Positions 129 through 14,144 of a DNA stretch of 54,092 nt are shown piece after piece; the first letter of the stretch is position 1; every line of letters starts with the position of its first letter. The notes beneath the pieces were generated by a model, which was given only the letters and a program-made list of their open reading frames with translations, did not search any database and was not told the origin of the DNA. This DNA is from an uncultured Anaerolineaceae bacterium. GTDB taxonomy: Bacteria > Chloroflexota > Anaerolineae > Anaerolineales > E44-bin32. Made by a program: the position numbers and the translations under genes. The stretch lies in NCBI GenBank assembly GCA_964353875.1, contig CAYGXU010000009.1, positions 1 to 54,092 on the forward strand. The letters run 5' to 3'.

Positions 129-950
129 TCATTTCGGTCCAGCGGCTCGAACCAGGATCTTGGCTGCCGCGTCACGATCCTCCTCACCGCTTTGAAACGG
201 GCTGTAAATGCGTGACCGGACTTGATGGAACGCCTCCAAGGCTGACTCGATGATTTCAAACTCACATCGTTCAAAGATTTCCCTGAAGATCGCTTCATAG
301 TCCCAGATTCTAAGCCGGTTTAAATTGCTAGCTGGATTTAGATAACGACGCCAGGTCTTCTCCGAGTAACAAAGCATCGCAAATGGATATCTGAAGAGGT
401 GATCGCGCAGATCGATGAAATGCACATGCGCGCCCGAGAATTTCGTGAGCGCAGCGAGGGATTTTGTAACCTGTCGTGGATTTTCAAGATGTTCGTAGAC
501 GGAGGAAGACAATACCAGATCCAATGCTTCGGCGCATCTATTTTGATATGCCTCTGCCGTATCATGCACAAGTGTAATGCGTGCCGGATTAGGACTAACT
601 TCACCATTCTTTATGAAGATGTATGGTTCAGCTTCTTTCGCGAGGACGAGATTGTCCTGCCGATTCGTCAAAGCGTAGGGATCTAAGAGCACTACATGTT
701 GTGCACCGCGTTTGAGTAGCTCGACTGCAGAACCGAAGTAGCCACCGTATCCAAGAATCAACACCCTTGCTCCCTGTATTCCTAGCCCCCACGCCGCCAA
801 CGCATCCGTATAACGATTGACTGCCGCTTGCGCGTCGCGCGTCTCGAGACCTGACTGCACTCCTATGTTGTGCCCCATCATCCAATGCATGATGGGTGTA
901 GGAGTGAAACGGCGTGCCAAACGTAATGCAAGATACTCTAACGACGGCAC
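129..950 (-). CDS. Class I SAM-dependent methyltransferase
   Basis: 273-aa ORF. It has a glycine-rich motif I (VLILGYGGYFGSAVELL) followed by an acidic post-I residue (VVLLDPY) and a later LVLSSSVYEHL motif, typical of the Methyltransf_11/23 fold. It starts 14 nt after the upstream small gene. Confidence 0.7.
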   Translation of the reverse strand: MPSLEYLALRLARRFTPTPIMHWMMGHNIGVQSGLETRDAQAAVNRYTDALAAWGLGIQGARVLILGYGGYFGSAVELLKRGAQHVVLLDPYALTNRQDNLVLAKEAEPYIFIKNGEVSPNPARITLVHDTAEAYQNRCAEALDLVLSSSVYEHLENPRQVTKSLAALTKFSGAHVHFIDLRDHLFRYPFAMLCYSEKTWRRYLNPASNLNRLRIWDYEAIFREIFERCEFEIIESALEAFHQVRSRIYSPFQSGEEDRDAAAKILVRAAGPK

Positions 951-964
951 CTCACGATCTCCTT

Positions 965-1300
965 TTATGCAAATTCACCTGAAGCGTCTGATTTTGTATT
1001 CTTGAGAAATGGAGAGGTCTTTCCGGGCCTCTCTCGAAAAAGCCAAATCGGATTCTCCATAGAAGCAATGATCAGGCGCGCCCGCAAAGCAATCCCCGAA
1101 GGTTTAATGACGTAACGCAACTTAGGAAGCTCAGCGCTTTTAGCTCTGATAAAAAGGTTCTCGATGAAGCGCCTGAGATACCAATTTTCCGTGCCCACAA
1201 CCACGCCGGTCCTTGCTGTCATACTAACCTGGGGTGTGTCTTGACCGTTATCAATTGAATCAAGCAGATAGATATCACGATCGGTTTCTAGAGGCTCCAT
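965..1300 (-). CDS. Small hypothetical protein (111 aa from the ATG; the ORF track extends it to a TTG at 1315)
   Basis: Open frame with no recognisable family. Its N-terminus, 5' UTR and upstream region are paralogous to window positions 1..128. Confidence 0.5.
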   Translation of the reverse strand: MEPLETDRDIYLLDSIDNGQDTPQVSMTARTGVVVGTENWYLRRFIENLFIRAKSAELPKLRYVIKPSGIALRARLIIASMENPIWLFRERPGKTSPFLKNTKSDASGEFA

Positions 1301-1431
1301 CTTCGTACCATTCAAATCTCAATTGGTGAATTTTTGCCCTACCAAGACATGGGACAGGGCCGGTTATTCCCCAAGATCATCGCCATCCTTTAGAAAGCTT
1401 TGAAATGAGAAATGCAGTTGGTCATTATTGG

Positions 1432-3405
1432 TCACCGTTTTACAAAATCCCTCTTCGGAGCAAGCAACCACACAGAGACCTTATCAGCTCTCAGCACCGG
1501 CTGATAATACTCCAGGATGGGTACACTGACATGTTTGACCCAGGCATCGTTCTCCTCACCAAAAGGCTCTTCAGATCCCTGAAATACAATATAGAGGGGA
1601 TCACTGACGATCAATTGAAAACGGTGACGGGAAAGATCTCTATACAATTGAGCAAAATACGTTTGATTATTTCCCATCGCCTGGTTCATCATATCCTTGA
1701 GCTCATAATCCATTACCAGAGGAACCTCGGTGATCTCGCCAAAAGTAAGAAGCTGACGCTGGTCAATAAATAGCACTTCCCCTTTCTCTGCTGCTTCCAT
1801 GGTTAGATAACGGATGGATGCAAGCGCCTCGCGGACATCTTTATTGTCAGGCAAATCCAGGTGTTCTCCAACTCGGACGAGATTCCAAATTGGAACAAAG
1901 ATCACAGCCAGAAGCAAAACCCAGGCAAAGCTTGGCATCGATCGTAACACACTCTCCTTGGTGATTAAATAGCCCGTAAAAAGGACGAGAGTCACCAAGA
2001 ACATATCAAGATTGTGGAGATTACTCCCCCCACCGATTTTTACACTGGCGACAAGACCAGCTCCAAGGAATCCGAGAAAGGCGACCAGGGTTACAAGCCC
2101 CTGTAACCAATCTAACTTCACTCTACGGCTGAGAATCACCCATGCAAGCCATAATAGGAGAGGTCCAACACTATAGATCAACCCTGGGATCACGCCAGTC
2201 GGATTGGTAGCACTTGGCCAAAGTCGATACCAAAGGAGGGGCTGACTCAGGGAGGTGGAATAAATAGGTCCAGTGCTTGGGAAAGCGAGATCCATATAGA
2301 TTTGCGAAATAATCGCGCCGATAATCCCTGAAAAGCCCAATATGAAAGGACGTCGCAGCCTTCGCCAGAATGTCTGCGCCGGCTCTTCATCCAAAATTGC
2401 CCACACTATAGCCCAAATAGCAGGGGACAGCATCCATGTCCAACGACTGATTCCGGCATAAAAAGAAGCGACAGCTATGATCAAAGCTGGTTGCCAAAGC
2501 CAATTACGCCGATATCCCAGCACAAAGATGATTGCACTTATAATAAGGGGAGCGTAAATCGGTCCTTGAGAGAGAAATAGAAATGCCCAGAGAGCGAAAG
2601 GCCATGGTCCCAAATGGAGATGATCAGAACGTCGCGCCCCGATAACCACCCAACCCAAGACCATATGAGGCAAGATCCAAAGCAAAGCGTCCCATAAACG
2701 CATGTGCTCGATCGAGAGCCGACTAAAAAACAAGAAAGGCAAGCCCCACAATCCATGACGCCCCGGCGTTAGGTAGGAAGGATAGGAGAACTCTCCAACA
2801 ATATCGTATCGATCATGACTAAAGTAGAGGGAGTAATCCCAAAGCCGATTGCCTTCCGACCAACCAAGTGCGAAAGGATAATCCGTCACCTGAAATAAAC
2901 GCTGCACCACCAATACAATGCAACTGGAGAGGAGCAACGCTGTCATCCCTCTCACGACCCAATGTCCCAATTTCCTGGGAAAGAAAAGACCTGCAATTAG
3001 TGAAAAAATAACCACCAGCAGGATACGAAAATTCGGGAAATCGAATCGCCAGCCCCATGGTCCAAAAAGGAGGAAAGAAGGAAATGCCAAGCTTATCAGG
3101 GCGATAGGCCATCGGAGGGATCGTATCCGATCGAGCTGTGTCTCTATCTGAGGAATCCATTTTGATTCAACTTCCCCTGGTTTAAAAACCCCGTAGACAA
3201 CAACAAACATCACTCCCCATGCCAGGAGGCCATAACCGATCAGCCCCACGCCCCATTTGACTGAGAAATGCCCGAGGAACTCCCCATTGCCTGTACCCAT
3301 GCCGCGCAAGAAGAGATCGCGTGAGCCTGAGACAACCAAGATCCCTAATAGAAGCCATCCGATCCGTAGCCAAAATGTCGCGCTTCGAAAGATCGATTTC
3401 ATCAT
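1432..3405 (-). CDS. Large polytopic membrane protein with a C-terminal soluble domain, candidate GT-C-type glycosyltransferase
   Basis: 657 aa with more than 12 hydrophobic segments, then a ~150-aa hydrophilic C-terminal domain. It has a 4-nt start/stop overlap with the upstream flippase-like gene and sits in a glycan locus beside a polyprenyl-phosphate GT2. Confidence 0.55.
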   Translation of the reverse strand: MMKSIFRSATFWLRIGWLLLGILVVSGSRDLFLRGMGTGNGEFLGHFSVKWGVGLIGYGLLAWGVMFVVVYGVFKPGEVESKWIPQIETQLDRIRSLRWPIALISLAFPSFLLFGPWGWRFDFPNFRILLVVIFSLIAGLFFPRKLGHWVVRGMTALLLSSCIVLVVQRLFQVTDYPFALGWSEGNRLWDYSLYFSHDRYDIVGEFSYPSYLTPGRHGLWGLPFLFFSRLSIEHMRLWDALLWILPHMVLGWVVIGARRSDHLHLGPWPFALWAFLFLSQGPIYAPLIISAIIFVLGYRRNWLWQPALIIAVASFYAGISRWTWMLSPAIWAIVWAILDEEPAQTFWRRLRRPFILGFSGIIGAIISQIYMDLAFPSTGPIYSTSLSQPLLWYRLWPSATNPTGVIPGLIYSVGPLLLWLAWVILSRRVKLDWLQGLVTLVAFLGFLGAGLVASVKIGGGSNLHNLDMFLVTLVLFTGYLITKESVLRSMPSFAWVLLLAVIFVPIWNLVRVGEHLDLPDNKDVREALASIRYLTMEAAEKGEVLFIDQRQLLTFGEITEVPLVMDYELKDMMNQAMGNNQTYFAQLYRDLSRHRFQLIVSDPLYIVFQGSEEPFGEENDAWVKHVSVPILEYYQPVLRADKVSVWLLAPKRDFVKR

Positions 3406-4334
3406 TCCTCAGGCCTCTTAGTTTTGATCCGTACCTCCTCCGGCACAACTTTCCCTACCCAAAGCGCACCTGGAAGGCTGACGAATAAGTAAAAGAAACG
3501 TGTAATCAATGCCAGGGCGGTCGCCTGTTCCGTTGAAGCTCCAAAATGGGTATAAAAGGCTACTATCGCTAATTCACGGATTCCGTATCCATTGATGGAT
3601 AAGGGAATCAAAGTCAAAAAATAGACAAGACTGGAAGCCCCGGCGACATCTTTCAAACTTACAGGGATATTAAGACCAATGGCGATGAGAAAAACTGCAC
3701 AAAACCATACCAGAACACCACAACAAGAGGCCAACAGTGAAAGTAATAGCCAGATTGGCCTCTTTAGCCAATGCTGAAGAGCCCCCATAAAATGATCAAA
3801 AGCCTCTCGCATACTGCCTGATATTTTTCTTTTATCCATCGCAATGGGGCCCGCAAATAGCAGACCGGTTCTAACTACAGATTGGAGCAGAGGGATACCG
3901 AAGGGCAGAAAGAATAGCATCCCAATGAAACCAACCAAACGATCGACCACAACCGAGGCTGCTGCTTCCATGCGTTTCTCTGATTCCTGCACGATCCCTG
4001 CAATTCGCACGACATCTCCGCCTACCATACTCGGTAAAAAATTAGAAGCGAAAAGGCCAGAGAAAACAAACATAAGGGTACGAAAGAACGGAAGGAAAAT
4101 ACCCTGAGCACGCAACAGAAGAAACCAACGGATGGTGTTCCAGGTATGTCTCAATAAAAGTAAAAGAATGCTGAGGATAAGCAGATAAAGAGGCAATGAT
4201 TTGATCGCCTCAAGTATCATCCGCCAATCTTGTTGTGAGAGAAGCCAAAGGAGCAAACCCAACGACAGGATCGTGCCAATCAGTCTTAATCTCCAGGATA
4301 TCCCCTTCTTATGGACTTTATCCACATAGGACAT
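3402..4334 (-). CDS. Flippase-like / lysylphosphatidylglycerol-synthase TM-region family membrane protein (UPF0104)
   Basis: 310 aa and multi-pass. It has the characteristic SNFLPSMVGGDVVRI motif and an RW..LL N-terminal segment. Confidence 0.7.
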   Translation of the reverse strand: MSYVDKVHKKGISWRLRLIGTILSLGLLLWLLSQQDWRMILEAIKSLPLYLLILSILLLLLRHTWNTIRWFLLLRAQGIFLPFFRTLMFVFSGLFASNFLPSMVGGDVVRIAGIVQESEKRMEAAASVVVDRLVGFIGMLFFLPFGIPLLQSVVRTGLLFAGPIAMDKRKISGSMREAFDHFMGALQHWLKRPIWLLLSLLASCCGVLVWFCAVFLIAIGLNIPVSLKDVAGASSLVYFLTLIPLSINGYGIRELAIVAFYTHFGASTEQATALALITRFFYLFVSLPGALWVGKVVPEEVRIKTKRPEE

Positions 4335-4341
4335 TGTTTTG

Positions 4342-5397
4342 TCAATCCATTACCGCAAGATATAAAGGTTCAAGTAATCTTAATAACTCATCCCCCAAAT
4401 CAGCTGGCGCTTTATTTCGGTAAGGCACTCCCATCCAATACACTGGGGTCTCTGCGAGGCGCTCAATGAGTAATTCTTGCTCCCGGGCTTTCCAGGCTGT
4501 GATCCTATCGGTGGCTTGAGGTATCCCGAGGTTCTTCTCCAGAAGCCTACAGAAATGACGCGCCTCAAAGAAATTCATATTGAGTACTTCCCCGACGGGG
4601 ATATCCGTTGGCGAAATCCGTTCGATGGATGGATGACTCCTTTCCGTACGTTTTAACAGGATGATCGCCGCTATATACGCTTCAGCAGCAATTTCATGTT
4701 TTGGCCACAGACGTTGAGCGCCCAATCGTATTGGCCACTTCACCCCCTCCCTTGAGATCATACGCAGCCGTCCGTAGAACTCCAGTTTCATTCGTTCTCC
4801 CAAGCTAAGCCTGGAACGAAGCTGTGGAATCCAGCGCAAGAGGTCAAGATATAGATGCGAACGTGTCAGATAGGGCAATGATTTCCGTCCCGGCAGAAGA
4901 AAAACATAATCATCTGCATGCAATCGGTATTTCGCTCCTCCACGTTCCAAAATAAGCGAACTAACCGTAGTCTTTCCAGTGCCGCCCATTCCTGTAAAGA
5001 TCAGACTTCGATCACCATAAACGACTGCCGCTCCATGCAGCATGAGGGCAGATTGAGTCGAGCTTAGAAAACGCAAGCTCGGATGGACAAGCATATGATG
5101 AACCATGGGAACGGCAATCCCGTTCCCTACAGCATCTATTTCGATCCGGCTTTCCCCCAAGTTTACTCTATAAGCCCATTGTGCCAGGAGTTTGTGGGAG
5201 TGAAAGCTGTATCCAGAGCTTCTTTGCCCGAGGGCATTTCCTCTTCTCCAATGTAGACGAAAAACGGGGATACCTGGCGAGAATTTCCCTGCCGAAAATC
5301 GGAATTCCTCCTCGATGAAATCAAGAGCATAGATATCCCGGCTCTCAAGTTCAAAACCTACCAGGTCATGAAAGTTATAACTCCGCGTCTCGCTCAT
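4342..5397 (-). CDS. HPr-kinase-like (HprK C-terminal domain-like) P-loop protein
   Basis: The segment LHGAAVVYGDRSLIFTGMGGTGKTTVSSLILERG...LHADDYVFL resembles the HprK/P catalytic core (lHG..v...g.g.li.G.sG.GKS...L...G..l..DD). It has a 4-nt overlap with the upstream GT4 gene. Confidence 0.6.
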   Translation of the reverse strand: MSETRSYNFHDLVGFELESRDIYALDFIEEEFRFSAGKFSPGIPVFRLHWRRGNALGQRSSGYSFHSHKLLAQWAYRVNLGESRIEIDAVGNGIAVPMVHHMLVHPSLRFLSSTQSALMLHGAAVVYGDRSLIFTGMGGTGKTTVSSLILERGGAKYRLHADDYVFLLPGRKSLPYLTRSHLYLDLLRWIPQLRSRLSLGERMKLEFYGRLRMISREGVKWPIRLGAQRLWPKHEIAAEAYIAAIILLKRTERSHPSIERISPTDIPVGEVLNMNFFEARHFCRLLEKNLGIPQATDRITAWKAREQELLIERLAETPVYWMGVPYRNKAPADLGDELLRLLEPLYLAVMD

Positions 5398-6530
5398 CCG
5401 CCAATCGCTTTCTTGAAAACTTTCTCATAGTCATCGGCAACATGGCGGATATCGAAAAGAGCTGCCTTGGAACGACTGGCGATTTTCATCTTACGCAACC
5501 GCTCTGAATTCTGCAGGCAATAGCGCAAGCCATCTTCGAAGCATTGGCGATCATTGATCGCACAAAGGCGTCCGTTAACACCATCTTCGACCAGATCGAT
5601 AAGACCACCCGCCCTATTGGCTACGATCACCAACCCCTGAGCGAGAGCATGTACACCCACTACAGGCAGTCCTTCCGAAAGAGAGGGCATGACGAGAATG
5701 TCACTCTCTCCTAATTGCCGCCAGACTTCATCGGTACTGACCCAGCCACCCAGATGAATGCGGTCTTCCAGGTGAGTCTTTTTGATCGCTGTTTCGATCG
5801 CTTCACGTTGGGGGCCATCACCCAATAATATACATGTCCACTTTAGATCCTTTAACCCTGAGAGAGACTCCACCAGGAAGACAAGATTCTTCTGAGGCTG
5901 AAATCGACCGGCAAAAATCAGCCGAGGCGTGTCCCCGACAGTCAGATTCCTATCTATTTCGGAATCTTCGGGCAGCTTCACACCGTTGGGGATGACGCTC
6001 ATCGCTACCGGGTAATGTTTTTGCGCCAATTCCATCGTATAACCGCTTACGGTAACGACCGCCCGAGCACCTTTCCAAATCGGGGGAGTGAAGGGATAAA
6101 TGAAACGGAACCAACGATCGGTCTTCTCTGGAACCCCCCCAGGCACATCCCCCAAATGAGCAGTAAGCACATAGGGGATACCACTCAGACGAGACAGCAC
6201 ATAACCGAGGACGCCAGTAGGAACAGCAAAATGTACATGGATCAGATCGGGTTTCCAACGTCGCAAATGCGATAAGGCAGGAAAAAAAGCTCCAAGAAGA
6301 TATCCCAACATCACACGCAATGAGGCTTGGGTCAGAACTCGCCGACCAGATGGGACACGCAAAACGCGATAACCATCAATCATTTCATCGCGAGGTAGCC
6401 CTTGTGCGTGGGAGGTGATCAAGCGAAGCTCATGACCACAATAGGCAAGCGCCTGACAAAGATCTGCACAGGCGCGTCCACCTCCCCCGCCAACAGGCGG
6501 ATATTCATAATTCAGCACCAGTATCTTCAC
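5394..6530 (-). CDS. Glycosyltransferase family 4 (GT-B fold)
   Basis: VKILVLNYEYPPVGGGGG N-terminus and a C-terminal E..G....EA-type motif (MPSLSEGLPVVGVHALAQGLVIVANRAGG). I chose the GTG at 6530. The ORF-track start at 6662 would overlap the upstream GT2 gene by 113 nt. Confidence 0.85.
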   Translation of the reverse strand: MKILVLNYEYPPVGGGGGRACADLCQALAYCGHELRLITSHAQGLPRDEMIDGYRVLRVPSGRRVLTQASLRVMLGYLLGAFFPALSHLRRWKPDLIHVHFAVPTGVLGYVLSRLSGIPYVLTAHLGDVPGGVPEKTDRWFRFIYPFTPPIWKGARAVVTVSGYTMELAQKHYPVAMSVIPNGVKLPEDSEIDRNLTVGDTPRLIFAGRFQPQKNLVFLVESLSGLKDLKWTCILLGDGPQREAIETAIKKTHLEDRIHLGGWVSTDEVWRQLGESDILVMPSLSEGLPVVGVHALAQGLVIVANRAGGLIDLVEDGVNGRLCAINDRQCFEDGLRYCLQNSERLRKMKIASRSKAALFDIRHVADDYEKVFKKAIGG

Positions 6531-6549
6531 TCGAGACTCAGCGGCCGAC

Positions 6550-7572
6550 TCAAGCCTGATCCTCCCCTTCACTCTCGTCCGTCCATCCATTATGAATCGA
6601 ACGAACTGAATAGGTGGGTTTCGCTTGAGATTCATGATATGTACGGACCAGTAACTCGGCAATTAAGCCCATCAGAATGGATTGGAATCCGAGGATAAAC
6701 AACATCGTGGTCATCAGAAGCAAGGGGGAGCGAATCATGTGTTCATCCAAGATAATTCGACGCCCGACCAATATTCCTAGCATGACGACACTCAATGCAA
6801 TTAAAAAAATGCCAGTCCCACCAAAGAGGTATATGGGTTTATTCGCATAGCTGATCAGGAATTTTACAGTGAACAAATCCAGGATGACCTTCAACGTTCG
6901 TTCCAAGCCGTATTTCGCTTTTCCGTGCCTGCGAGGGTGATGGCGTACTGGAATCTCGATTATCTTCGCGCCAACCCAACCGGCATATGCTGGGATAAAG
7001 CGATGCATCTCTCCATAAAGCCGAAAGCCCTGCAGGACTTCGCGACGATAAGCCTTTAAAGTACAGCCATAATCATGTAGACCGACGCCGGTGACTTTCG
7101 AGATGAGCCAATTCGCAATTTGAGAGGGGATTCTCCTGGTAAAGAGCTTATCCTGGCGATGAACACGCCAGCCCGAAACCAGATCGTAACCTTCCTTGAT
7201 TTTTTCCACCAGGAGGGGGATATCGGCCGGATCATTCTGCAGATCAGCGTCAATTGTAACAATCACATCCCCATGGGCGTGGTCGATCCCGGCCGCAATG
7301 GCCGCTGTTTGCCCAAAGTTACGACGTAATTCAACCACATGGGTATGTTTTGCATCTCTCTTGGCAATCTCTCCCAATACTTCCCGGCTCCCATCGATGG
7401 AGCCATCGTCAACAAAAACCAATTCATACGAATGGGCACTGAGCGCTGAAGTTAGTTCCTGATGAAGCGGTTTGAGGTTCTCCTCTTCATTGAAGACCGG
7501 GATGACAATAGAGAGATCCACTTTCTTCACTTGCCCAACCTCTAGATCAAATTGATAAGACGAATGGGGCAA
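6550..7572 (-). CDS. GT2 polyprenyl-phosphate glycosyltransferase (GtrB/ArnC/DPM1-like)
   Basis: LSIVIPVFNEEENL, VFVDDGSIDGS, TIDADLQNDP (DXD) and two C-terminal TM helices. This is the classic GtrB/ArnC architecture. Confidence 0.85.
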   Translation of the reverse strand: MPHSSYQFDLEVGQVKKVDLSIVIPVFNEEENLKPLHQELTSALSAHSYELVFVDDGSIDGSREVLGEIAKRDAKHTHVVELRRNFGQTAAIAAGIDHAHGDVIVTIDADLQNDPADIPLLVEKIKEGYDLVSGWRVHRQDKLFTRRIPSQIANWLISKVTGVGLHDYGCTLKAYRREVLQGFRLYGEMHRFIPAYAGWVGAKIIEIPVRHHPRRHGKAKYGLERTLKVILDLFTVKFLISYANKPIYLFGGTGIFLIALSVVMLGILVGRRIILDEHMIRSPLLLMTTMLFILGFQSILMGLIAELLVRTYHESQAKPTYSVRSIHNGWTDESEGEDQA

Positions 7573-7608: not shown

Positions 7609-8694
7609 TTATTCAAGCTCATTTGCCTGGCTATTCAATACAGCCGTTACTCCGGTATCCCAACGGTGCCAATCACCGAAACATTCTTTAAGGATGCGCA
7701 GGCCTTCACCAATGGGTTTCTGACCAATCGCTTCCATGTCTGCATCCACCATGATACGGGCTAATTGCTTATATGTAATTTTCGGTTCCCATTCAAGCCA
7801 TTTACGTGCTTTGGATGCATCAGCCAGCAGAAAATCTACTTCCGTAGGTCGGAAATATCGAGCGTCAATCTCGACATACTTTTCCCAATCCAATCCAGCG
7901 TATTCGAAGGTCTCGATGACGAATTCTCGCATACTTGGGGCTACACCCGTGCCGACAACATAGTCATCCGGATGATCCTGCTGCATCATTTGCCACATGG
8001 CTTCAACATATTCTGGAGCATACCCGTAATCCCTGCGCGCGTCCAGGTTTCCCAGATAAACCTTCTTTTGTGTTCCAGCTAAGATGCGCGCCACCGCTCG
8101 TGTGACTTTGCGAGAGAGGAAAGTGGGCCCACGGCGAGGGCTCTCATGGTTAAAGAGGATTCCATTGGAAGCAAACATATTGTATGCCTGACGATAATTC
8201 ACCGTCATCCAAAAACCATATAACTTCGCGATCGCATAAGGGCTACGTGGTTGAAAAGGGGTGGCTTCATTTTGAGGAGGTGGCGCGCTTCCAAAAATTT
8301 CACTGGAAGAGGCCTGATAGAAACGAGCAGCAATCCCGCTGCGTCGGATCGCCTCTAAGATGCGTGTCGTCCCGAGACCGGTCACCGATCCAGTATACTC
8401 AGGCATCTCAAAGCTTACCTTCACATGAGACTGTGCTCCCAGGTGATAAATCTCATCCGGTCGAACATTGTAGATTAGATTGGTTAATTGTTCAGCGTTC
8501 GACAAATCGCCATAATGTAAATATAAACGGGCTGAAGGGTCATGGGGGTCCTGGTAAATGTGATCGATCCTTTCGGTGTTGAAGGTGCTCGCTTTGCGGA
8601 TCATTCCATGGACTTCATAACCTTTGCTAAAAAGGAATTCAGCCAGATAGGACCCATCCTGGCCAGTGATTCCGGTGATTAAAGCCTTCAACAT
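7609..8694 (-). CDS. gmd: GDP-mannose 4,6-dehydratase
   Basis: [44 protein letters not shown]..., YAIAKLY catalytic motif, 361 aa. There is an AGGAG Shine-Dalgarno sequence 6 nt upstream. Confidence 0.95.
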
Positions 8695-8731: not shown

Positions 8732-8772
8732 ATTCAGTTGCTGAATTATACCCGGATCATGTCAACGGTCAA
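8732..8772 (-). promoter_or_regulatory. Sigma70-type promoter (TTGACC-N16-TATAAT) with palindromic operator ATTCAG-CAA-CTGAAT upstream of gmd
   Basis: The -10 lies at 8750..8745 and the -35 at 8772..8767, with a second TTGACA at 8765..8760. The perfect palindrome is at 8746..8732. Relative to the copy at 54..68, both arms carry a complementary substitution, so the palindrome is preserved. Confidence 0.55.
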
Positions 8773-10355
8773 GCCTTACGGCGTCTTGCGCTAAACCGAT
8801 CGAAAGTCAAGATACATGTCAAATAGAGGAGGATTATACTTATACTTACCCCAAGGGTCTTCCAAAAACTTAACCGTGGAGTTTGATAATATCTTCCCAT
8901 TTCCCAATGAAGAAAGGTTATGGTTGGGATTACTACTACGACTCCAATCCGCAGTAGCCAGGGATCATGTTCCTCCCGAGCGGTAATCCAGGCCCAACCA
9001 GCCATTGCTGCCTGAAGGCAAAGGAATATCGCCCTCCAGCGAGGATTATCCCACAGGCGACCTGCATCCCGATAGGAAACCAGCAACGCTGCAACCCAAA
9101 GTAATATTCCCAGATACGTTTCCAGGCTGCGCCATCCCTTATAGCGGATCGCTGCCAGGGGAGCGTAGATCAAAAAAGGTAGAAGGAAGAACCAGCCTAA
9201 TGCCCGAAAGGCAACGATTGCACGGATGAGGGGCGCACTCGTGTTATCCATCACCGCTGCAGGAAAGAAAGGTTGTACCAGGCCATAGAGTGTCGCCAAG
9301 GGCAATCGCCCCCAATCCGGTACCATTCCAAAGATGGTTTGAACCCAGCCTGAGGATTGTTCAAGAAGATGAAGTTGATAACCAGCCCCACTTTGTATCC
9401 ACCAACGCACCAAATCAATCAAATTGCCATCAGGTGCCCCCTCGATCATTGCCCAAGCGCGGATTGTCAAGGCGAAGACCACGAAACAGAATAGAAGCAA
9501 AGCGCCCAACGTAATCACGATATGTTTGGCATCGCCCCGCTTCTCCCAAAGCCATGCGAAGATAAGAATGCCCAGGATGATCAGGGCATAAGGGGGCGAG
9601 ATAAGAAGCGCGAGTATGAGGCCACACAACCAATAAAGTAAGCCTTGCTTTAGTCTCGTTGAACGAGAATGGGTGTATCCTTCAAGCCCAAGCGCCAATG
9701 CTGTCATGAGAAAGGGTTCCCGCATTTGAGAAGAACCTAGGAGCACTGCCTCCGGGTAGAAGGCGACTAGCCAGGCTGCAAACATCGCTGCCCGATTCCC
9801 AAACAGCTTATGGGTGAATGACCAGGTAAACAATACACACAGGGAGCCAAGTGTTGACGCCACAAGGATGATGAGGATGGGACGATGAACATCAGAGGAC
9901 ACCGTCCGGTAGAGGAATGCACTCAAAAAAAGCAGTCCTCCATATTGGTCACTAGAATAATCACCTTCCCAAGCACTGATGAGGGACTTATCGGATTCTG
10001 CCAGTCGCCATGCATCGGTGTCACGATGATAGGCATCTTTAAAGATGTAACCAGCCTGATGGGGAGCAGAATCGCTATAGCCATATTGGGGAAGGCCATA
10101 CGTCAAGATCACCCCAAGACCCAATCTCAGTGCAAGCGCCAAGAGGGCAGCAAGGAGCAGCCATCGAGGTCGATCCAACCCAGCCAAGGTACGCCATGAA
10201 AACCAGAAGAGTAGCGCGCAAATAAGGCTGACAACGAGGTATGCCAGAAAATTCGCTAGTGTCCTACCACCCGAATCCAGCAAGGTTATCAGCACACTCA
10301 CAACGAGAGGAAAAACGAACCATAGAGACCCATCTCGTACAGCCTTCAATTTCAT
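8769..10355 (-). CDS. Polytopic membrane protein, candidate glycan polymerase or GT-C-type transferase
   Basis: About 528 aa from ATG 10355 (GAGAGAAGG upstream), with 12 or more hydrophobic segments and large loops, inside the glycan locus. No family motif recognised with certainty. Confidence 0.55.
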   Translation of the reverse strand: MKLKAVRDGSLWFVFPLVVSVLITLLDSGGRTLANFLAYLVVSLICALLFWFSWRTLAGLDRPRWLLLAALLALALRLGLGVILTYGLPQYGYSDSAPHQAGYIFKDAYHRDTDAWRLAESDKSLISAWEGDYSSDQYGGLLFLSAFLYRTVSSDVHRPILIILVASTLGSLCVLFTWSFTHKLFGNRAAMFAAWLVAFYPEAVLLGSSQMREPFLMTALALGLEGYTHSRSTRLKQGLLYWLCGLILALLISPPYALIILGILIFAWLWEKRGDAKHIVITLGALLLFCFVVFALTIRAWAMIEGAPDGNLIDLVRWWIQSGAGYQLHLLEQSSGWVQTIFGMVPDWGRLPLATLYGLVQPFFPAAVMDNTSAPLIRAIVAFRALGWFFLLPFLIYAPLAAIRYKGWRSLETYLGILLWVAALLVSYRDAGRLWDNPRWRAIFLCLQAAMAGWAWITAREEHDPWLLRIGVVVVIPTITFLHWEMGRYYQTPRLSFWKTLGVSISIILLYLTCILTFDRFSARRRKA

Positions 10356-10650
10356 CCTTCTCTCACATCCTTTATTCAATCAACCCTGCCTGATCTGAAG
10401 ACCTGATTGCCTATCCCAGCACACGAAACTATGAAGAAAATTTGGTAGTCTCTATACAACCGGAAGCCTTCAAAAGCGACTGACTTGGAAGGCCAGGATT
10501 ATCTTGCATAGAAGTCGATAGCTTTTTGCTTCCAAAATCATACGACAAGTAGAAGAGCTTCCTTCGGTTATAGAATCTCCGCATTATCCGGCAATTCGTC
10601 GTAAATTCTTCTAGAACATATGCTTCCATGCATCATCTTGCTCAAGGCAA

Positions 10651-11781: not shown

Positions 11782-13167
11782 TCAACCTTCCACTACTTCT
11801 TGAGGTGGCATCCCTTCCGCTCGTTTGATTTCCCCTATCGTTTTCCATAGCAATGTGATGGCATTGATGAGAAAGAACACGCTCATCATCACCGCCATAC
11901 CTGAAGCGCCCCAGCTTGGGACGAGAAGGAGCATGCCAGCGATCTGAACCCCCACTGCGACAAAACCGACTTTCGTAGGATAATCGGGTAATCCGAGCGG
12001 AAGCAGCACGCTCCTACCCCAGTAGATAATATTCACTGCCATAACGCCGATCAGCAAGATGAGCAGAATCGGGTAGGCCGGAAGAAACTCCTCGCCATAC
12101 AACATCACCAACCACCGACCGAAAAATATCAATCCCAGGCTGGAGGGGATTGTCCAGATTGCAGAAAGAAGACTCCCGCTACGCAGCAAATAGCGCACAT
12201 TCGTCCAGCGTTTTCCAGCGACTTCCCTGGCCACTTCACGATATGTCGTGCTGATTAATGGGGTAATAGGGACAAGGAGTATATTCATAAATGCCTTGGC
12301 AACCTTGTAATATCCTCCCTGTAATGGGCTGCTCAATGCATTAATCCACAGGATATCGCTATCGCGTGTGACCAGATTGAGAGTGCCACTTAAGTTCGTG
12401 CTAATCGCAAATCGGATTAAATCTTTGCGCCGATCGGCGATGGTCATTAGGGGGATTTTCCACCACCCAATGCCCCACTCCACTCGAGCAACTCTCAAGG
12501 CCATGGCAGAGATTAACCCGGCCCATATAAACTTGCCGATTAAATACGCAATCATCACTTCCTGCAGGTGCCCTTTCATGAGGAAAGTCGCCAGGATTAA
12601 CAATAATGTAACCACACCTTGGATGACGGTAATCACTGCAATTGCTTTAAATCGATCGTAGATGTGAAGCAAGCCAGTTGAGCTTTCTGCTATCAGATTC
12701 GCCAGTACCGACAAACCGTAGACGACGAAGATGCCTGTCATGGTCGGATCCTTCGCCAGATAGCGTGCGCCAATCGGGGCTAACGCCACAACCAGTGCAT
12801 AAGCGACAAGCGCGCTCATCATTTCAACCAAGGCTGCAGCTTTGAACAAAGCCGCTGATCGTTGATGTTCTCCTCTTTCATTGAACTCGCCGATATAACT
12901 TACAACAAGCTCACTCATTCGAAAGGAAGTTAGTCGATTGATGACACTTGCATACTGCGTTACTGCCCCCAACATTCCAAATGCTTCAACGCCTAACAGA
13001 CGACCCGCAAGCACACTCTGAGCCATACTCAAAACCGCCGATAGCGAGGTGGCGCTGAAAACATAACTCGAATTGCGGATCATCCGCTGGGTGAGAGGAT
13101 TCTGTCCTAAGCGTTCAAAGGTCTTTCGAATGAAATTTTGCGGAGGAGTCGGCATGTGCTGCCTCAT
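11782..13167 (-). CDS. Oligosaccharide/polysaccharide flippase (Wzx-like, MOP superfamily)
   Basis: 461 aa with about 12-14 TM segments and polysaccharide-biosynthesis-protein-like N- and C-terminal regions. It has an ATGA overlap with the upstream epimerase gene. Confidence 0.8.
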   Translation of the reverse strand: MRQHMPTPPQNFIRKTFERLGQNPLTQRMIRNSSYVFSATSLSAVLSMAQSVLAGRLLGVEAFGMLGAVTQYASVINRLTSFRMSELVVSYIGEFNERGEHQRSAALFKAAALVEMMSALVAYALVVALAPIGARYLAKDPTMTGIFVVYGLSVLANLIAESSTGLLHIYDRFKAIAVITVIQGVVTLLLILATFLMKGHLQEVMIAYLIGKFIWAGLISAMALRVARVEWGIGWWKIPLMTIADRRKDLIRFAISTNLSGTLNLVTRDSDILWINALSSPLQGGYYKVAKAFMNILLVPITPLISTTYREVAREVAGKRWTNVRYLLRSGSLLSAIWTIPSSLGLIFFGRWLVMLYGEEFLPAYPILLILLIGVMAVNIIYWGRSVLLPLGLPDYPTKVGFVAVGVQIAGMLLLVPSWGASGMAVMMSVFFLINAITLLWKTIGEIKRAEGMPPQEVVEG

Positions 13168-14144
13168 TCACCCGAGGTGGTCACTTGCTTTGCCCACTTA
13201 CGTTCTTGCTGATACCATAACACGCAGGCGGCTAAACCATCGTCGAGGCTCATTTGTGGCTCCCATCCAAGTAGCTTCCCCGCTTTTTCGATGTGCGCCC
13301 AGGTTGTAGGGACATCTGCTGGCGAAGGATCGTGCCATTCAATCTTGGCATCGCGTTGCAAGAGCCTTTCAATCTTGTGCAGTACATCCAGCATCTGAAC
13401 CGGGTGGTCACCCCCTAAATTTACCACTTCAAAACCTACTGGGCGTAACGCTGAAATAGTCCCGCGTACGATGTCATCGACAAAAGTAAAATCGCGCTCC
13501 TGATGCCCGTCTCCATAGATCCTTACTGGATAACCCTCTGCAACCCATTGAATGAACCGGAAAATGCTCATGTCGGGACGGCCAGCGGGACCGTAGACGG
13601 TGAAATAGCGCAGGACACTCACATCCAAGCCATAGAGATGGTGGTAGCTATGGCAAAGCAGTTCGGAGGCTCCTTTGGAGGCAGCATAGGGAGATAACGG
13701 CCGGCTGATGTCCGCATCCTCCCGAAATGGGCGTGGGGTATTAAGACCATAGAGGCTGGAGGTGGAAGCCTGGACAAACTTCGAAACGCGACGATCACGG
13801 CATGCATTCAGCAAGTGTAACGTGCCGAGCACATTGGTTTGATAATAAACCAAGGGATCACGCACGCTCTGTCGGACGCCCGCACGTGCGGCCAAGTTGA
13901 TCACGGCGTCGAAGGATTGGTCGCCCCATACGCTCATAAGGGATGGATCATCACTGATATCCGCCTGAAAAAAGGTGAAATTTTTAAATTTCGTCAAACG
14001 CTCGAGGCGCCAAGTCTTCAAACGGACATCATAGGCATCATTCATATTATCGACGGCAACCACCTCATGCGATTCTTCCAACAGATGCCTGGCGACAGTC
14101 GATCCAATGAAACCTGCCGCTCCTGTGAGCAAATAGCACGCCAT
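13164..14144 (-). CDS. NAD-dependent nucleotide-sugar 4-epimerase (extended SDR; UDP-glucuronate / UDP-GlcNAcA 4-epimerase-like)
   Basis: LLTGAAGFIGS Rossmann motif, the YAASK catalytic YxxxK motif, 326 aa. It lies directly downstream of a sugar 6-dehydrogenase. Confidence 0.85.
   Translation of the reverse strand: MACYLLTGAAGFIGSTVARHLLEESHEVVAVDNMNDAYDVRLKTWRLERLTKFKNFTFFQADISDDPSLMSVWGDQSFDAVINLAARAGVRQSVRDPLVYYQTNVLGTLHLLNACRDRRVSKFVQASTSSLYGLNTPRPFREDADISRPLSPYAASKGASELLCHSYHHLYGLDVSVLRYFTVYGPAGRPDMSIFRFIQWVAEGYPVRIYGDGHQERDFTFVDDIVRGTISALRPVGFEVVNLGGDHPVQMLDVLHKIERLLQRDAKIEWHDPSPADVPTTWAHIEKAGKLLGWEPQMSLDDGLAACVLWYQQERKWAKQVTTSGE

What the first reader, a model, noticed from the sequence alone, without database searches (positions are those of the whole stretch)
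4342..5397. HPr-kinase-like P-loop protein translationally coupled inside a glycan biosynthesis operon
The 351-aa protein has the HprK/P-type catalytic core arrangement (LHGAAV..G..LIFTGMGGTGKTT....G......ADD) but lacks the HprK N-terminal domain. Its start overlaps the GT4 stop codon by 4 nt, and its own stop codon lies 7 nt from the start of the flippase-like gene.

HprK-related kinases outside carbon catabolite control are known from exosortase-type and lasso-peptide contexts, where they phosphorylate peptides (established knowledge). A copy wedged between a glycosyltransferase and a lipid-linked-sugar flippase-like protein suggests a different role. It could phosphorylate a glycan, a lipid carrier or a neighbouring protein. 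No PqqD-like or nucleotidyltransferase partner is evident.
Basis: partly seen in the sequence, partly recalled or inferred. Interest (0 to 1): 0.6.

Follow-up and report, generated by a model that had tools for sequence, protein, structure and literature searches.

The report
Kinase-like enzyme paired with lipid flippase
This is a real, well-conserved gene for a soluble ATP-binding enzyme built like PEP carboxykinase and HPr kinase; in Anaerolineae bacteria it almost always sits just before a lipid-flippase gene inside a surface-glycan operon, so it probably adds phosphate to a membrane-anchored sugar-lipid, a job no enzyme of this fold is known to do.

Summary
Window 4342-5397, on the minus strand, encodes a 351-aa cytoplasmic protein. 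It overlaps the GT4 stop by 4 nt (ATGA) and ends 7 nt before a PF03706 flippase-like gene.

The AlphaFold model (pLDDT 95.5) has the PEPCK/HprK fold:
- PEPCK matches over the whole length (Z 17.4).
- The HprK/P C-domain matches residues 116-351 (Z 11-12).
- Unrelated P-loop proteins reach only Z about 5.

His121, the Walker A motif (136-144) and Asp162-Asp163 are invariant in the core family. The protein fails every curated family threshold (HprK_rel_A/B, Hpr_kinase_C, PEPCK_ATP). The genome shows no HPr.

The family is a distinct accessory family found almost only in Anaerolineae. In 44 of 48 loci with room, the flippase gene follows directly. In 46 of 53 loci a GT4 lies within 8 kb. Cluster versions lacking this gene exist, and cultured Ornatilinea apprima has the kinase-flippase pair alone.

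My best reading (about 0.45) is a tailoring kinase in a synthase-modifier-flippase lipid cassette. This resembles gpgSDF with a kinase in place of the deacetylase, and it feeds GT-C glycosyltransferases. No substrate is shown.

The scan has noted related HprK/PEPCK-fold proteins in glycan loci of other genomes before.

The parts
4342..5397 (-). 351-aa soluble PEPCK/HprK-fold P-loop protein ('X'), the finding itself
   Evidence: ORF and translation. 194 homologues. AF2 model with pLDDT 95.5. Fold matches to PEPCK (Z 17.4) and HprK/P (Z 11-12).
4966..4992 (-). Walker A / P-loop codons, residues 136-144 (GMGGTGKTT)
   Evidence: G136, G139, G141 and K142 are invariant in both alignments of the core family. 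T143 and T144 are invariant in one alignment and at least 90% conserved in the other. G141 and K142 stay invariant when distant relatives are added.
5035..5037 (-). His121 codon (LHG motif), which aligns with His of 'mHG' in HprK/P and of 'MHAS' in PEPCK
   Evidence: HMMER alignments to 1jb1 and 1j3b. Invariant in the core family and at least 90% conserved in the wider clade.
4909..4914 (-). Asp162-Asp163 codons (HADD), the counterpart of the HprK 'ADD' and PEPCK 'GDD' kinase-2 motifs
   Evidence: Alignment to 1jb1. Invariant in the core family. D162 is at least 90% conserved in the wider clade.
5394..6662 (-). GT4 (GT-B) glycosyltransferase; its stop overlaps the X start (ATGA). The true start is probably downstream of the listed TTG.
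   Evidence: Pfam Glycos_transf_1 at 102.6 bits and Glyco_transf_4 at 88.8 bits. Junction sequence. A GT4 lies within 8 kb of X in 46 of 53 loci.
3402..4334 (-). PplT / UPF0104 / LPG_synthase_TM flippase-like membrane protein, 7 nt downstream of X
   Evidence: PF03706 at 125.4 bits and TIGR00374 at 79.5 bits. Seven hydrophobic segments. It directly follows X in 44 of 48 loci with room.
1432..3405 (-). 657-aa polytopic GT-C-fold glycosyltransferase candidate with no Pfam family
   Evidence: No Pfam or NCBIfam hit. About 13 hydrophobic segments. AF2 model with pLDDT 88. The top 31 Foldseek hits are all GT-C enzymes (AftA, STT3/AglB, ArnT, PimE; best E 5e-5). ArnT scores Z 11.6 over 410 residues.
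6550..7572 (-). ArnC/GtrB/PgfS-like GT2 (polyprenyl-phosphate sugar synthase type) with 2 C-terminal TM segments
   Evidence: PF00535 at 116 bits. NF007986 (ArnC) at 229 bits, below its cut-off. PgfS at 168 bits.
7609..8694 (-). GDP-mannose 4,6-dehydratase
   Evidence: TIGR01472 at 492.8 bits, above the 415 cut-off.
8769..10379 (-). 536-aa polytopic protein, a weak PMT_2 (GT-C) match; part of the conserved cluster
   Evidence: PF13231 at E 3.8e-3. About 13 hydrophobic segments. Conserved upstream of GMD-GT2 in most loci.

Best explanation
X is a catalytically competent, cytoplasmic nucleotide-dependent (possibly PPi-dependent) phosphotransferase of the PEPCK/HprK fold. I read it as the 'modifier' in a synthase-modifier-flippase lipid cassette.

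The proposed sequence of events is:
1. GT4 puts a sugar on a membrane-anchored acceptor (a phospholipid, glycolipid or lipid carrier) at the inner leaflet.
2. X phosphorylates that lipid-anchored head group.
3. The PplT/UPF0104 protein encoded immediately downstream translocates the product.
4. Outside the membrane, GT-C enzymes (the 657-aa and 536-aa proteins) extend or use it, with polyprenyl-phosphate sugars made by the ArnC-like GT2.

What is shown: the fold, the conserved catalytic residues, cytoplasmic location, gene order, conservation of the X-PplT pair, the optional nature of X, and the GT-C fold of the 657-aa protein.

What is inferred: that X is a kinase, that its substrate is lipid-anchored, and that GT4's product is that substrate.
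For: Fold and catalytic residues
- AF2 model with pLDDT 95.5. PEPCK Z 17.4 over residues 1-351; HprK/P Z 10.7-11.9 over 116-351; next unrelated P-loop Z 5.3. Foldseek PEPCK E 9e-9.
- H121, K142 and D162-D163 are invariant in the core family, with T143 invariant in one alignment and at least 90% conserved in the other. They align with the catalytic His, P-loop and Asp-Asp of HprK/P and PEPCK.
- In the wider clade K142 is invariant, and H121 and D162 are at least 90% conserved.
- No TM segments.

Gene context
- PplT follows X directly in 44 of 48 loci with room. ATGA overlaps at GT4/X and X/PplT recur.
- In cultured Ornatilinea apprima the X-PplT pair stands alone between argGH and unrelated genes, so X-PplT is the minimal unit.
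- A GT4 lies within 8 kb in 46 of 53 loci.
- Relatives carry X-less versions of the same cluster: GT2-PplT-GT-C, GT2-GT4-PplT-GT-C and GT2-PplT-GT-C-GT4. X is therefore an optional tailoring add-on.
- One in-frame GT4-X fusion fragment exists, P0119.

Wider clade
- The same full-length fold (TM 0.77) occurs fused to GT2, and to GT2 plus GtrA_DPMS_TM, in Actinomycetota clusters.
- All five informative contexts of distant relatives lie in glycan clusters.

Precedents
- gpgSDF is GT4, then a cytoplasmic modifier, then a UPF0104 flippase, in the same order (PMC12713373).
- PF03706 is often fused to GT-B enzymes in Chloroflexi (10.1101/2022.03.11.483950).
Against: - No biochemical datum exists for any member of the family.
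- All characterised HprK-type enzymes act on proteins or peptides, not lipids or glycans (PMC8498205).
- Three loci have X without an adjacent PplT: L020 (next to a PMT_2 protein), L052 (next to a sortase) and L053.
- O. apprima has no GT4 beside the pair, so GT4's product need not be the substrate.
- I could not inspect residue-level geometry of the active site.
- The P-loop resembles the deviant GKGGxGKT Walker A of ArsA/MinD ATPases at sequence level, although the fold does not.
Confidence: 0.45

Rival explanations
1. X is a Ser/Thr protein or peptide kinase, like HprK/P and the lasso-peptide kinases. It would phosphorylate a neighbouring protein (GT4, the flippase or a GT-C loop) or a secreted or anchored protein. 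The phosphorylation would either regulate the pathway or create a phosphate that is then glycosylated (phosphoglycosylation).
For: - The only characterised relatives phosphorylate HPr Ser46 or the C-terminal Ser of lasso precursors.
- In pseudomycoidin that phosphate is then hexosylated (PMC8498205).
- Language-model features place X nearest to clusters named 'HPr kinase'.
- In L052 X sits beside a sortase, and in L020 it sits near an LCP ligase.
Against: - There is no conserved small ORF, PqqD/RRE or nucleotidyltransferase in the tight operon.
- No HPr was found in the genome.
- The two-domain, PEPCK-like architecture has N-domain residues (K69, W74) conserved across the clade. I infer that this suggests a closed small-substrate cleft.
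- Scores against HprK_rel_A/B are 10-fold below their cut-offs.
Confidence: 0.17
2. X is a kinase for a soluble precursor (a sugar, sugar acid, cyclitol or nucleotide-sugar intermediate) that GT4 then uses as donor or acceptor. It would not act on a lipid-anchored substrate.
For: - PEPCK itself and FomB-like phosphonate kinases act on small soluble molecules. One relative hits the FomB model weakly.
- The distant relative P0172 follows six epimerase/dehydratase genes.
- A NUDIX fusion cluster shares the fold.
- The window's GT4 aligns over its full length with BshA, which uses a soluble acceptor: E 6e-27, though below the cut-off.
Against: - X is strictly adjacent to a lipid translocator, including the stand-alone X-PplT pair in O. 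apprima.
- The fold is fused to GT2 plus a GtrA membrane module.
Confidence: 0.18
3. X is not a transferase. It would be an NTPase subunit that energises or gates the PplT translocator, or a nucleotide-sensing regulator of it.
For: - The X-PplT gene pair is invariant and translationally coupled.
- The Walker A sequence resembles ArsA/Get3-type transport ATPases.
Against: - The fold is PEPCK/HprK, not ArsA/MinD (Z 17 and 11 against about 5).
- Many PplT genes work without X. The genome has 9 PF03706 genes and one X.
- Orthologous clusters keep PplT without X.
- The invariant His and Asp-Asp, plus the N-domain residues, fit a phosphotransfer site.
Confidence: 0.1

Closest known systems
HPr kinase/phosphorylase HprK/P (TIGR00679; Pfam PF07475 C-domain plus PF02603 N-domain)
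   Same: - The P-loop domain fold matches: Z 10.7-11.9, rmsd 2.7-3.7 A, covering essentially the whole HprK C-domain.
- The order of catalytic elements is the same: His (LHG), Walker A GxxGxGK[ST], then ADD.
   Different: - No PF07475 hit at E 0.01 or better for this protein, and no HprK N-domain.
- It has a PEPCK-like N-domain instead.
- No HPr substrate gene was found in the genome.
- It sits in a glycan/lipid operon, not with PTS or catabolite-control genes.
ATP-dependent PEP carboxykinase (PF01293; e.g. 1ii2, 1k3c, 1j3b)
   Same: - It is the best whole-length structural match: Z 17.4 with 297 residues aligned over model residues 1-351; Foldseek E 9e-9.
- The helix, His and P-loop segment align at sequence level.
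- Both have a two-domain architecture.
   Different: - 351 aa against about 530 aa, with 12-15% identity.
- PF01293 scores 15.9 bits against a cut-off of 26.5.
- By ungapped extension of the alignment, the PEPCK-specific Lys-Lys motif positions are occupied by His100/His101/Met102 (inference).
- Nothing in the gene context points to oxaloacetate/PEP metabolism.
HprK-related kinases A/B (TIGR04352, TIGR04355), ScmC (TIGR04249/PF27840) and lasso-peptide kinases (PadeK, ThcoK, PsmK)
   Same: - They belong to the same superfamily and have similar lengths (280-350 aa).
- Profile hits are weak: HprK_rel_A at E 1.5e-4.
- Most homologues carry a 'weak' precomputed PF27840 hit.
- In pseudomycoidin, phosphorylation is coupled to glycosylation.
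   Different: - Scores are 21 and 15.5 bits against cut-offs of 200.
- There is no PqqD/RRE, precursor peptide, radical SAM or nucleotidyltransferase partner.
- The conserved partner here is a lipid flippase.
gpgSDF of Pseudomonas aeruginosa (and hexSDF of C. difficile): GT4 synthase, cytoplasmic modifier, UPF0104 flippase (PMC12713373)
   Same: - The gene order and logic match: GT4, then a soluble cytoplasmic tailoring enzyme, then a UPF0104/PF03706 membrane protein.
- The window's GT4 hits the GlcN_PG_synth model weakly, E 2.3e-11.
   Different: - The modifier here is a P-loop kinase-like protein, not a deacetylase.
- The GT4 is not an orthologue: 43 bits against a cut-off of 480.
- The cassette here is embedded in a GT2 / GT-C / Wzx glycan cluster.
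- No lipid product is known.
MprF (aminoacyl-PG synthase fused to a PplT flippase domain)
   Same: - A cytoplasmic lipid-modifying enzyme coupled to a PF03706 translocator.
- The two parts also function as separate proteins (10.1101/2022.03.11.483950).
   Different: - The catalytic partner has a different fold and chemistry: tRNA-dependent aminoacylation against presumed phosphorylation.
- Here the two parts are separate genes.

Membership tests
HPr kinase/phosphorylase (HprK/P) | Hpr_kinase_C domain (PF07475) at or above the gathering score (33.3 bits) / TIGR00679 | tested here: not met
   No PF07475 or TIGR00679 hit for P0001 at E 0.01 or better. Only 12 of 46 homologues give weak hits, the best at E 1e-3.
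HPr kinase/phosphorylase (HprK/P) | N-terminal HprK domain (PF02603) | tested here: not met
   No hit. Residues 1-115 align structurally with the PEPCK N-domain region instead.
HPr kinase/phosphorylase (HprK/P) | Catalytic His, Walker A and Asp-Asp in HprK order, with the fold of the C-domain | tested here: met
   Alignment to 1jb1. Z 10.7-11.9 to four HprK/P structures. The residues are invariant in the core family.
HPr kinase/phosphorylase (HprK/P) | HPr substrate encoded in the genome | tested here: not met
   PF00381 was not found in G000, which is 91.6% complete; the control genomes gave hits.
HprK-related kinase A (TIGR04352) | Model score at or above 200 bits, and a PqqD-like partner | tested here: not met
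   21 bits, E 1.5e-4. No PqqD-like gene among the operon neighbours.
HprK-related kinase B (TIGR04355) | Model score at or above 200 bits | tested here: not met
   15.5 bits, E 7e-3.
ScmC (TIGR04249 / Pfam PF27840) | Model hit above threshold, and SynChlorMet radical SAM/SPASM neighbours | tested here: inconclusive
   TIGR04249 gives no hit for P0001 at E 0.01 or better. PF27840 is not in the local library. Most homologues carry a precomputed PF27840 hit flagged mostly 'weak'. No radical SAM gene lies in the operon.
PEP carboxykinase (PF01293) | Pfam score at or above 26.5 bits, and the PEPCK-specific Lys-Lys / oxaloacetate-binding motifs | tested here: not met
   15.9 bits, covering only the His/P-loop segment. 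By ungapped extension of the alignment, the Lys-Lys positions hold His/His/Met (inference). The protein is 351 aa against about 530 aa.
PEP carboxykinase-like fold superfamily (PEPCK plus the HprK C-domain) | Shared three-dimensional fold of the nucleotide-binding domain, well separated from other P-loop folds | tested here: met
   Z 17.4 (PEPCK), 13.8, 11.9-10.7 (HprK/P) and 9.4 (PPi-PEPCK), against 5.3 for the next hit. 125 Foldseek hits at E 1e-3 or better, all 50 listed being PEPCKs.
Synthase-modifier-flippase lipid cassettes (gpgSDF/hexSDF type) | GT4, then a soluble modifier, then a UPF0104 flippase in one operon | tested here: met
   Gene order in the window and in 40+ related loci. Compared with PMC12713373.
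Synthase-modifier-flippase lipid cassettes (gpgSDF/hexSDF type) | A modified membrane lipid as the product | not testable with these tools
   This needs lipidomics.
Three-component polyprenyl-phosphate glycosylation systems (GtrB/ArnC, flippase, GT-C) | ArnC/GtrB-type GT2, a flippase and a GT-C-fold transferase encoded together | tested here: met
   GT2 scores 229 bits to the ArnC model, below its equivalog cut-off. PF03706 protein. The 657-aa protein has the GT-C fold. The flippase is PplT-type, not GtrA/ArnEF.

The most novel reading that the evidence does not exclude
The X-PplT pair is a split, MprF-like 'make-and-flip' unit. In it, a PEPCK/HprK-fold enzyme phosphorylates a membrane (glyco)lipid, and the dedicated UPF0104 translocator exports the product as the anchor or primer of a GT-C-built lipoglycan in Anaerolineae.

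This would be the first lipid- or glycan-directed kinase of this fold. It would also be the founding member of a large unnamed clade (about 2,000 cluster representatives at E 1e-3 or better) that accompanies glycosyltransferases across many phyla, including as GT2 and GtrA fusions in Actinomycetota.
Probability: 0.3. Interest if true: 0.72.

Novelty: new variant of a known kind. Interest (0 to 1): 0.55.

Why it matters
Enzymes of the HprK/PEPCK fold are known for only three jobs: carbon-catabolite signalling, gluconeogenesis and lasso-peptide tailoring. If this family phosphorylates a lipid-anchored sugar, that would add a new substrate class to an old fold.

It would also give a function to a broad, unnamed clade that rides with glycosyltransferases and flippases in many phyla.

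It would assign a concrete cargo to one of the many uncharacterised UPF0104/PplT 'flippases'; this genome alone has nine.

Finally, it would open a view of the cell envelope of Anaerolineae, abundant but poorly cultured bacteria whose surface glycoconjugates are essentially unknown. A cultured carrier, Ornatilinea apprima P3M-1, makes the question testable.

Tried and rejected
- **Complex prediction.** Complex prediction of X with the downstream PplT protein, using alignments A2 and A3, gave no verdict (score 0.00). I do not use it either way.
- **Search for longer fused forms.** The search among proteins of 616-2000 aa found nothing. This is weak evidence only.
- **The 670-aa 'GT4-X fusion' P0138.** I rejected it. 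The DNA shows the true GT4 C-terminus and its TGA in another frame, overlapping the X ATG. The linker is out-of-frame Arg/Gly-rich sequence, in a long-read MAG that has other split genes. Only the fragment P0119 remains as a plausible real fusion.
- **ArsA/Get3/MinD hits.** The PDB profile search put these on top (E 3e-3), but they cover only the 16-25 residues of the Walker A motif. The fold search contradicts them.
- **Single-sequence PDB search.** It gave nothing significant.
- **PF27840.** It could not be tested because it is not in the local Pfam copy.
- **Literature.** 'SynChlorMet' gave no papers. The HprK-like/related terms returned only lasso/RiPP and PTS papers.
- **Fixed 'GT4 always upstream' rule.** I considered and dropped it. 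There are two layouts (GT4-X-PplT and X-PplT-GT4), and O. apprima has no GT4 nearby.
Full report
**1. The observation**

The ORF lies on the minus strand at 4342..5397. It starts with ATG, ends with TGA and gives 351 aa (P0001).

The start overlaps the stop of the upstream GT4 ORF (5394..6662) in the tetranucleotide ATGA. Seven nucleotides separate its TGA from the ATG of the next gene, 3402..4334.

Pfam and NCBIfam name the neighbours:
- GT4 (Glycos_transf_1 at 102.6 bits).
- A PF03706 / TIGR00374 'flippase-like' membrane protein (125 bits).
- A 657-aa protein with no family.
- An ArnC/PgfS-like GT2.
- GDP-mannose 4,6-dehydratase.
- A 536-aa polytopic protein (weak PMT_2).
- Another GT1-type transferase.
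- A Wzx-type flippase.

Further upstream come an epimerase and a UDP-glucose dehydrogenase, and then housekeeping genes.

**2. What the protein is**

Curated models barely see it:
- PEPCK_ATP: 15.9 bits (cut-off 26.5).
- HprK_rel_A: 21 bits (cut-off 200).
- HprK_rel_B: 15.5 bits (cut-off 200).

The word-based protein search gives 194 homologues, reaching E 1e-108 at 40-50% identity. Most carry a precomputed, mostly 'weak' hit to the new Pfam PF27840 (ScmC). An alignment of 46 homologues has 37 invariant columns.

AlphaFold2 on that alignment gives pLDDT 95.5 and pTM 0.93.

Fold searches gave these results:

| Search | Match | Score |
|---|---|---|
| Foldseek, PDB | ATP-PEPCKs first | E 9e-9 |
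| VIA-align, 48,161 chains | T. cruzi PEPCK | Z 17.4, 297 residues, model 1-351 |
| VIA-align | another PEPCK | Z 13.8 |
| VIA-align | four HprK/P structures | Z 10.7-11.9, rmsd 2.7-3.7 A, model 116-351 |
| VIA-align | PPi-PEPCK | Z 9.4 |
| VIA-align | next hit, unrelated P-loop NTPases | Z 5.3 |

The protein therefore belongs to the PEPCK/HprK fold superfamily. Its P-loop domain equals the HprK C-domain. Its N-terminal ~115 residues correspond to part of the PEPCK N-domain, not to the HprK N-domain.

HMMER alignments place His121 on the catalytic His of HprK ('mHG') and PEPCK ('MHAS'). They place the 136-144 Walker A on the P-loops of both, and Asp162-Asp163 on HprK's 'ADD'. These residues are invariant in the core family. 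When 24 distant relatives are added, G141 and K142 stay invariant and H121 and D162 stay at least 90% conserved. The same holds for two N-domain residues: K69 at least 90% conserved and W74 invariant.

The sequence-level top hits to ArsA/Get3 cover only the Walker A motif, and the fold contradicts them.

The genome (91.6% complete) has no detectable HPr and no canonical HprK. X is therefore not an HPr kinase.

**3. Family and distribution**

An exhaustive profile search of 1.84 billion cluster representatives finds 2,071 proteins at E 1e-3 or better and 64 at 1e-30 or better. There is a compact core family, reaching about 1e-70. Below it, full-length distant relatives score 1e-36 to 1e-15. These relatives give weak hits to Hpr_kinase_C, HprK_rel_A/B, hpr-ser and ScmC, which provides a transitive sequence link to HprK.

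In GTDB species genomes, 54 loci were found. Almost all are Anaerolineales/Anaerolineae MAGs, plus cultured Ornatilinea apprima P3M-1.

The gene is accessory:
- 13 of 36 other genomes of the window's own family have it, with variation inside genera.
- 1 of 300 genomes sampled across the phylum has it, and that one is only a distant relative.

**4. Neighbourhood**

I called ORFs in all loci and classified them with phmmer and with profiles built from the window's neighbours. Two layouts dominate:

- Layout I (the window type): p536 - GMD - GT2 - GT4 - X - PplT - GT-C.
- Layout II: GT2 - PplT - GT-C - X - PplT - GT4 - GT-C.

PplT directly follows X in 44 of 48 loci with room. That count is 41 scored automatically plus L027, L043 and L054, where over-extended ORF calls hid the adjacency. 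ATGA overlaps at GT4/X and X/PplT are frequent. A GT4 lies within 8 kb in 46 of 53 loci.

The exceptions are informative:
- In O. apprima the X-PplT pair stands alone between argG/argH and unrelated genes.
- L020 has X next to a PMT_2 protein, near an LCP ligase.
- L052 has X next to a sortase.
- L053 has X alone.

The 657-aa GT-C family is more widespread than X: 39 against 15 of the same 61 genomes. X-less versions of the same cluster exist in three forms: GT2-PplT-GT-C; GT2-GT4-PplT-GT-C; and GT2-PplT-GT-C-GT4.

So the content is nested: core, then core plus GT4, then core plus GT4 plus X (with or without an extra PplT and GT-C). X behaves as an optional tailoring function whose minimal partner is the flippase.

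**5. The partners**

The 657-aa protein has about 13 hydrophobic segments and an AF2 model with pLDDT 88. Its top 31 Foldseek hits are all GT-C enzymes: AftA, STT3/AglB, ArnT, DPY19, PimE and ALG12 (best E 5e-5). ArnT gives Z 11.6 over 410 residues. It is therefore a GT-C-fold transferase candidate that would use polyprenyl-phosphate-linked donors, matching the ArnC-like GT2.

PF03706 is the MprF flippase domain ('PplT'). It is often fused to GT-B glycosyltransferases in Chloroflexi, among other phyla (10.1101/2022.03.11.483950).

The P. aeruginosa gpgSDF operon has the same order as GT4-X-PplT here. It comprises a GT4 that glycosylates phosphatidylglycerol, a cytoplasmic deacetylase and a UPF0104 flippase (PMC12713373).

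**6. The wider clade also rides with glycan genes**

All five informative contexts of distant relatives are polysaccharide loci:
- P0172 follows six epimerases.
- P0183 lies near GT4, Bac_transf, Wzz and Wzy.
- In G114, X is overlapped by a GT4, followed by DUF2206 and a GT2.
- P0194 lies between GT2/GT4/epimerase and a deacetylase/Wzx.
- P0200 lies before a Wzx-like gene.

A structure search of the ESM Atlas finds the same full-length fold (TM 0.77) in other arrangements: fused to GT2 (668 aa), fused to GT2 plus GtrA_DPMS_TM (852 aa) in Actinomycetota clusters, and fused to NUDIX.

One in-frame GT4-X fusion fragment exists (P0119). The 670-aa 'fusion' P0138 is a frameshift artefact.

**7. Mechanism**

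The best-supported reading (confidence about 0.45) is that X is a cytoplasmic phosphotransferase acting on a membrane-anchored intermediate, which the adjacent PplT then translocates. In most Anaerolineae that intermediate is made or extended by the GT4, and it is further elaborated outside by GT-C enzymes. This is a synthase-kinase-flippase version of the gpgSDF/MprF logic.

Shown:
- The fold.
- The conserved catalytic triad of elements.
- The soluble nature of the protein.
- The pairing with PplT.
- The optional, nested occurrence.
- The GT-C fold of the partner.

Inferred:
- Kinase activity.
- The lipid-anchored nature of the substrate.
- The role of GT4.

Rivals:
- A protein or peptide Ser kinase, as in HprK and the lasso kinases: 0.17.
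- A kinase for a soluble precursor: 0.18.
- A non-transferase NTPase partner of the flippase: 0.10.

The remaining probability is unassigned.

**8. Novelty**

No paper in the searchable library describes HprK/PEPCK-fold proteins in glycan or lipid-flippase contexts. Within this scan, related proteins in glycan loci of other genomes have been noted repeatedly. One of those notes supplied the gpgSDF lead, which I checked in the paper itself.

I rate this as a new variant of a known kind: a known fold and chemistry, with a new partner set and probably a new substrate class.

Noticed in passing
G000 whole genome; window 3402-4334: The genome carries nine PF03706 (PplT/UPF0104) genes, all above the Pfam cut-off and on nine contigs. 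The PplT preprint says most prokaryotes have one. Only the copy in this window is paired with X.
   Followed up: partly
window 1432-3405 (-): The 657-aa protein has no Pfam or NCBIfam family but a confident GT-C fold. It has invariant motifs such as W182-S-E184 and K456-x-GGG-x3-HN-x-D467. Its family occurs in 39 of 61 related genomes, often in 2-3 copies. It looks like an unnamed GT-C family.
   Followed up: partly
window 5394-6662 / 6550-7572 (-): The longest GT4 ORF (TTG at 6662) overlaps the end of the GT2 gene by 113 nt. The Pfam GT4 domains begin only at residue ~46-59. The true GT4 start is probably an internal codon.
   Followed up: no
L060 8001-10013 (= L058; long-read MAG contig of 2.09 Mb): The called 670-aa GT4-X 'fusion' (P0138) is a frameshift. 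The real GT4 C-terminus and its stop lie in another frame, overlapping the X start. The same locus has other split genes, including a 153-aa GT1 fragment and the GT-C in 244-aa and 410-aa pieces.
   Followed up: yes
L050 10019-11981 (Ornatilinea apprima P3M-1, NZ_LGCL01000034.1): This is the only cultured carrier. The X-PplT pair stands alone, flanked upstream by argG/argH and downstream by a weak ACPS-like (4'-phosphopantetheinyl transferase) ORF and an MCP. It is a tractable test organism.
   Followed up: partly
L057 10025-10850: Here X is in two pieces, followed by GT4 genes instead of PplT. It is either a pseudogene or an assembly error in a long-read MAG.
   Followed up: no
window 7609-8694 (-) and 13164-14144 (-): GDP-mannose 4,6-dehydratase (492.8 bits, above cut-off) has no obvious GDP-fucose synthase next to it. 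A second SDR epimerase/dehydratase and a UDP-glucose dehydrogenase lie at the head of the operon. The sugar made is unclear.
   Followed up: no
window 965-1315 (-) and 129-950 (-): A 116-aa ORF without any family, and a weak class I methyltransferase (E 3e-4), follow the GT-C gene on the same strand. A methyltransferase also follows the GT-C in several related loci.
   Followed up: no
fold search of X, rank 2: A subunit of Euglena gracilis respiratory complex I (8j9h chain E2) matches the X model at Z 14.2 over 245 residues. This would be a PEPCK-like fold in a mitochondrial complex I accessory subunit.
   Followed up: no
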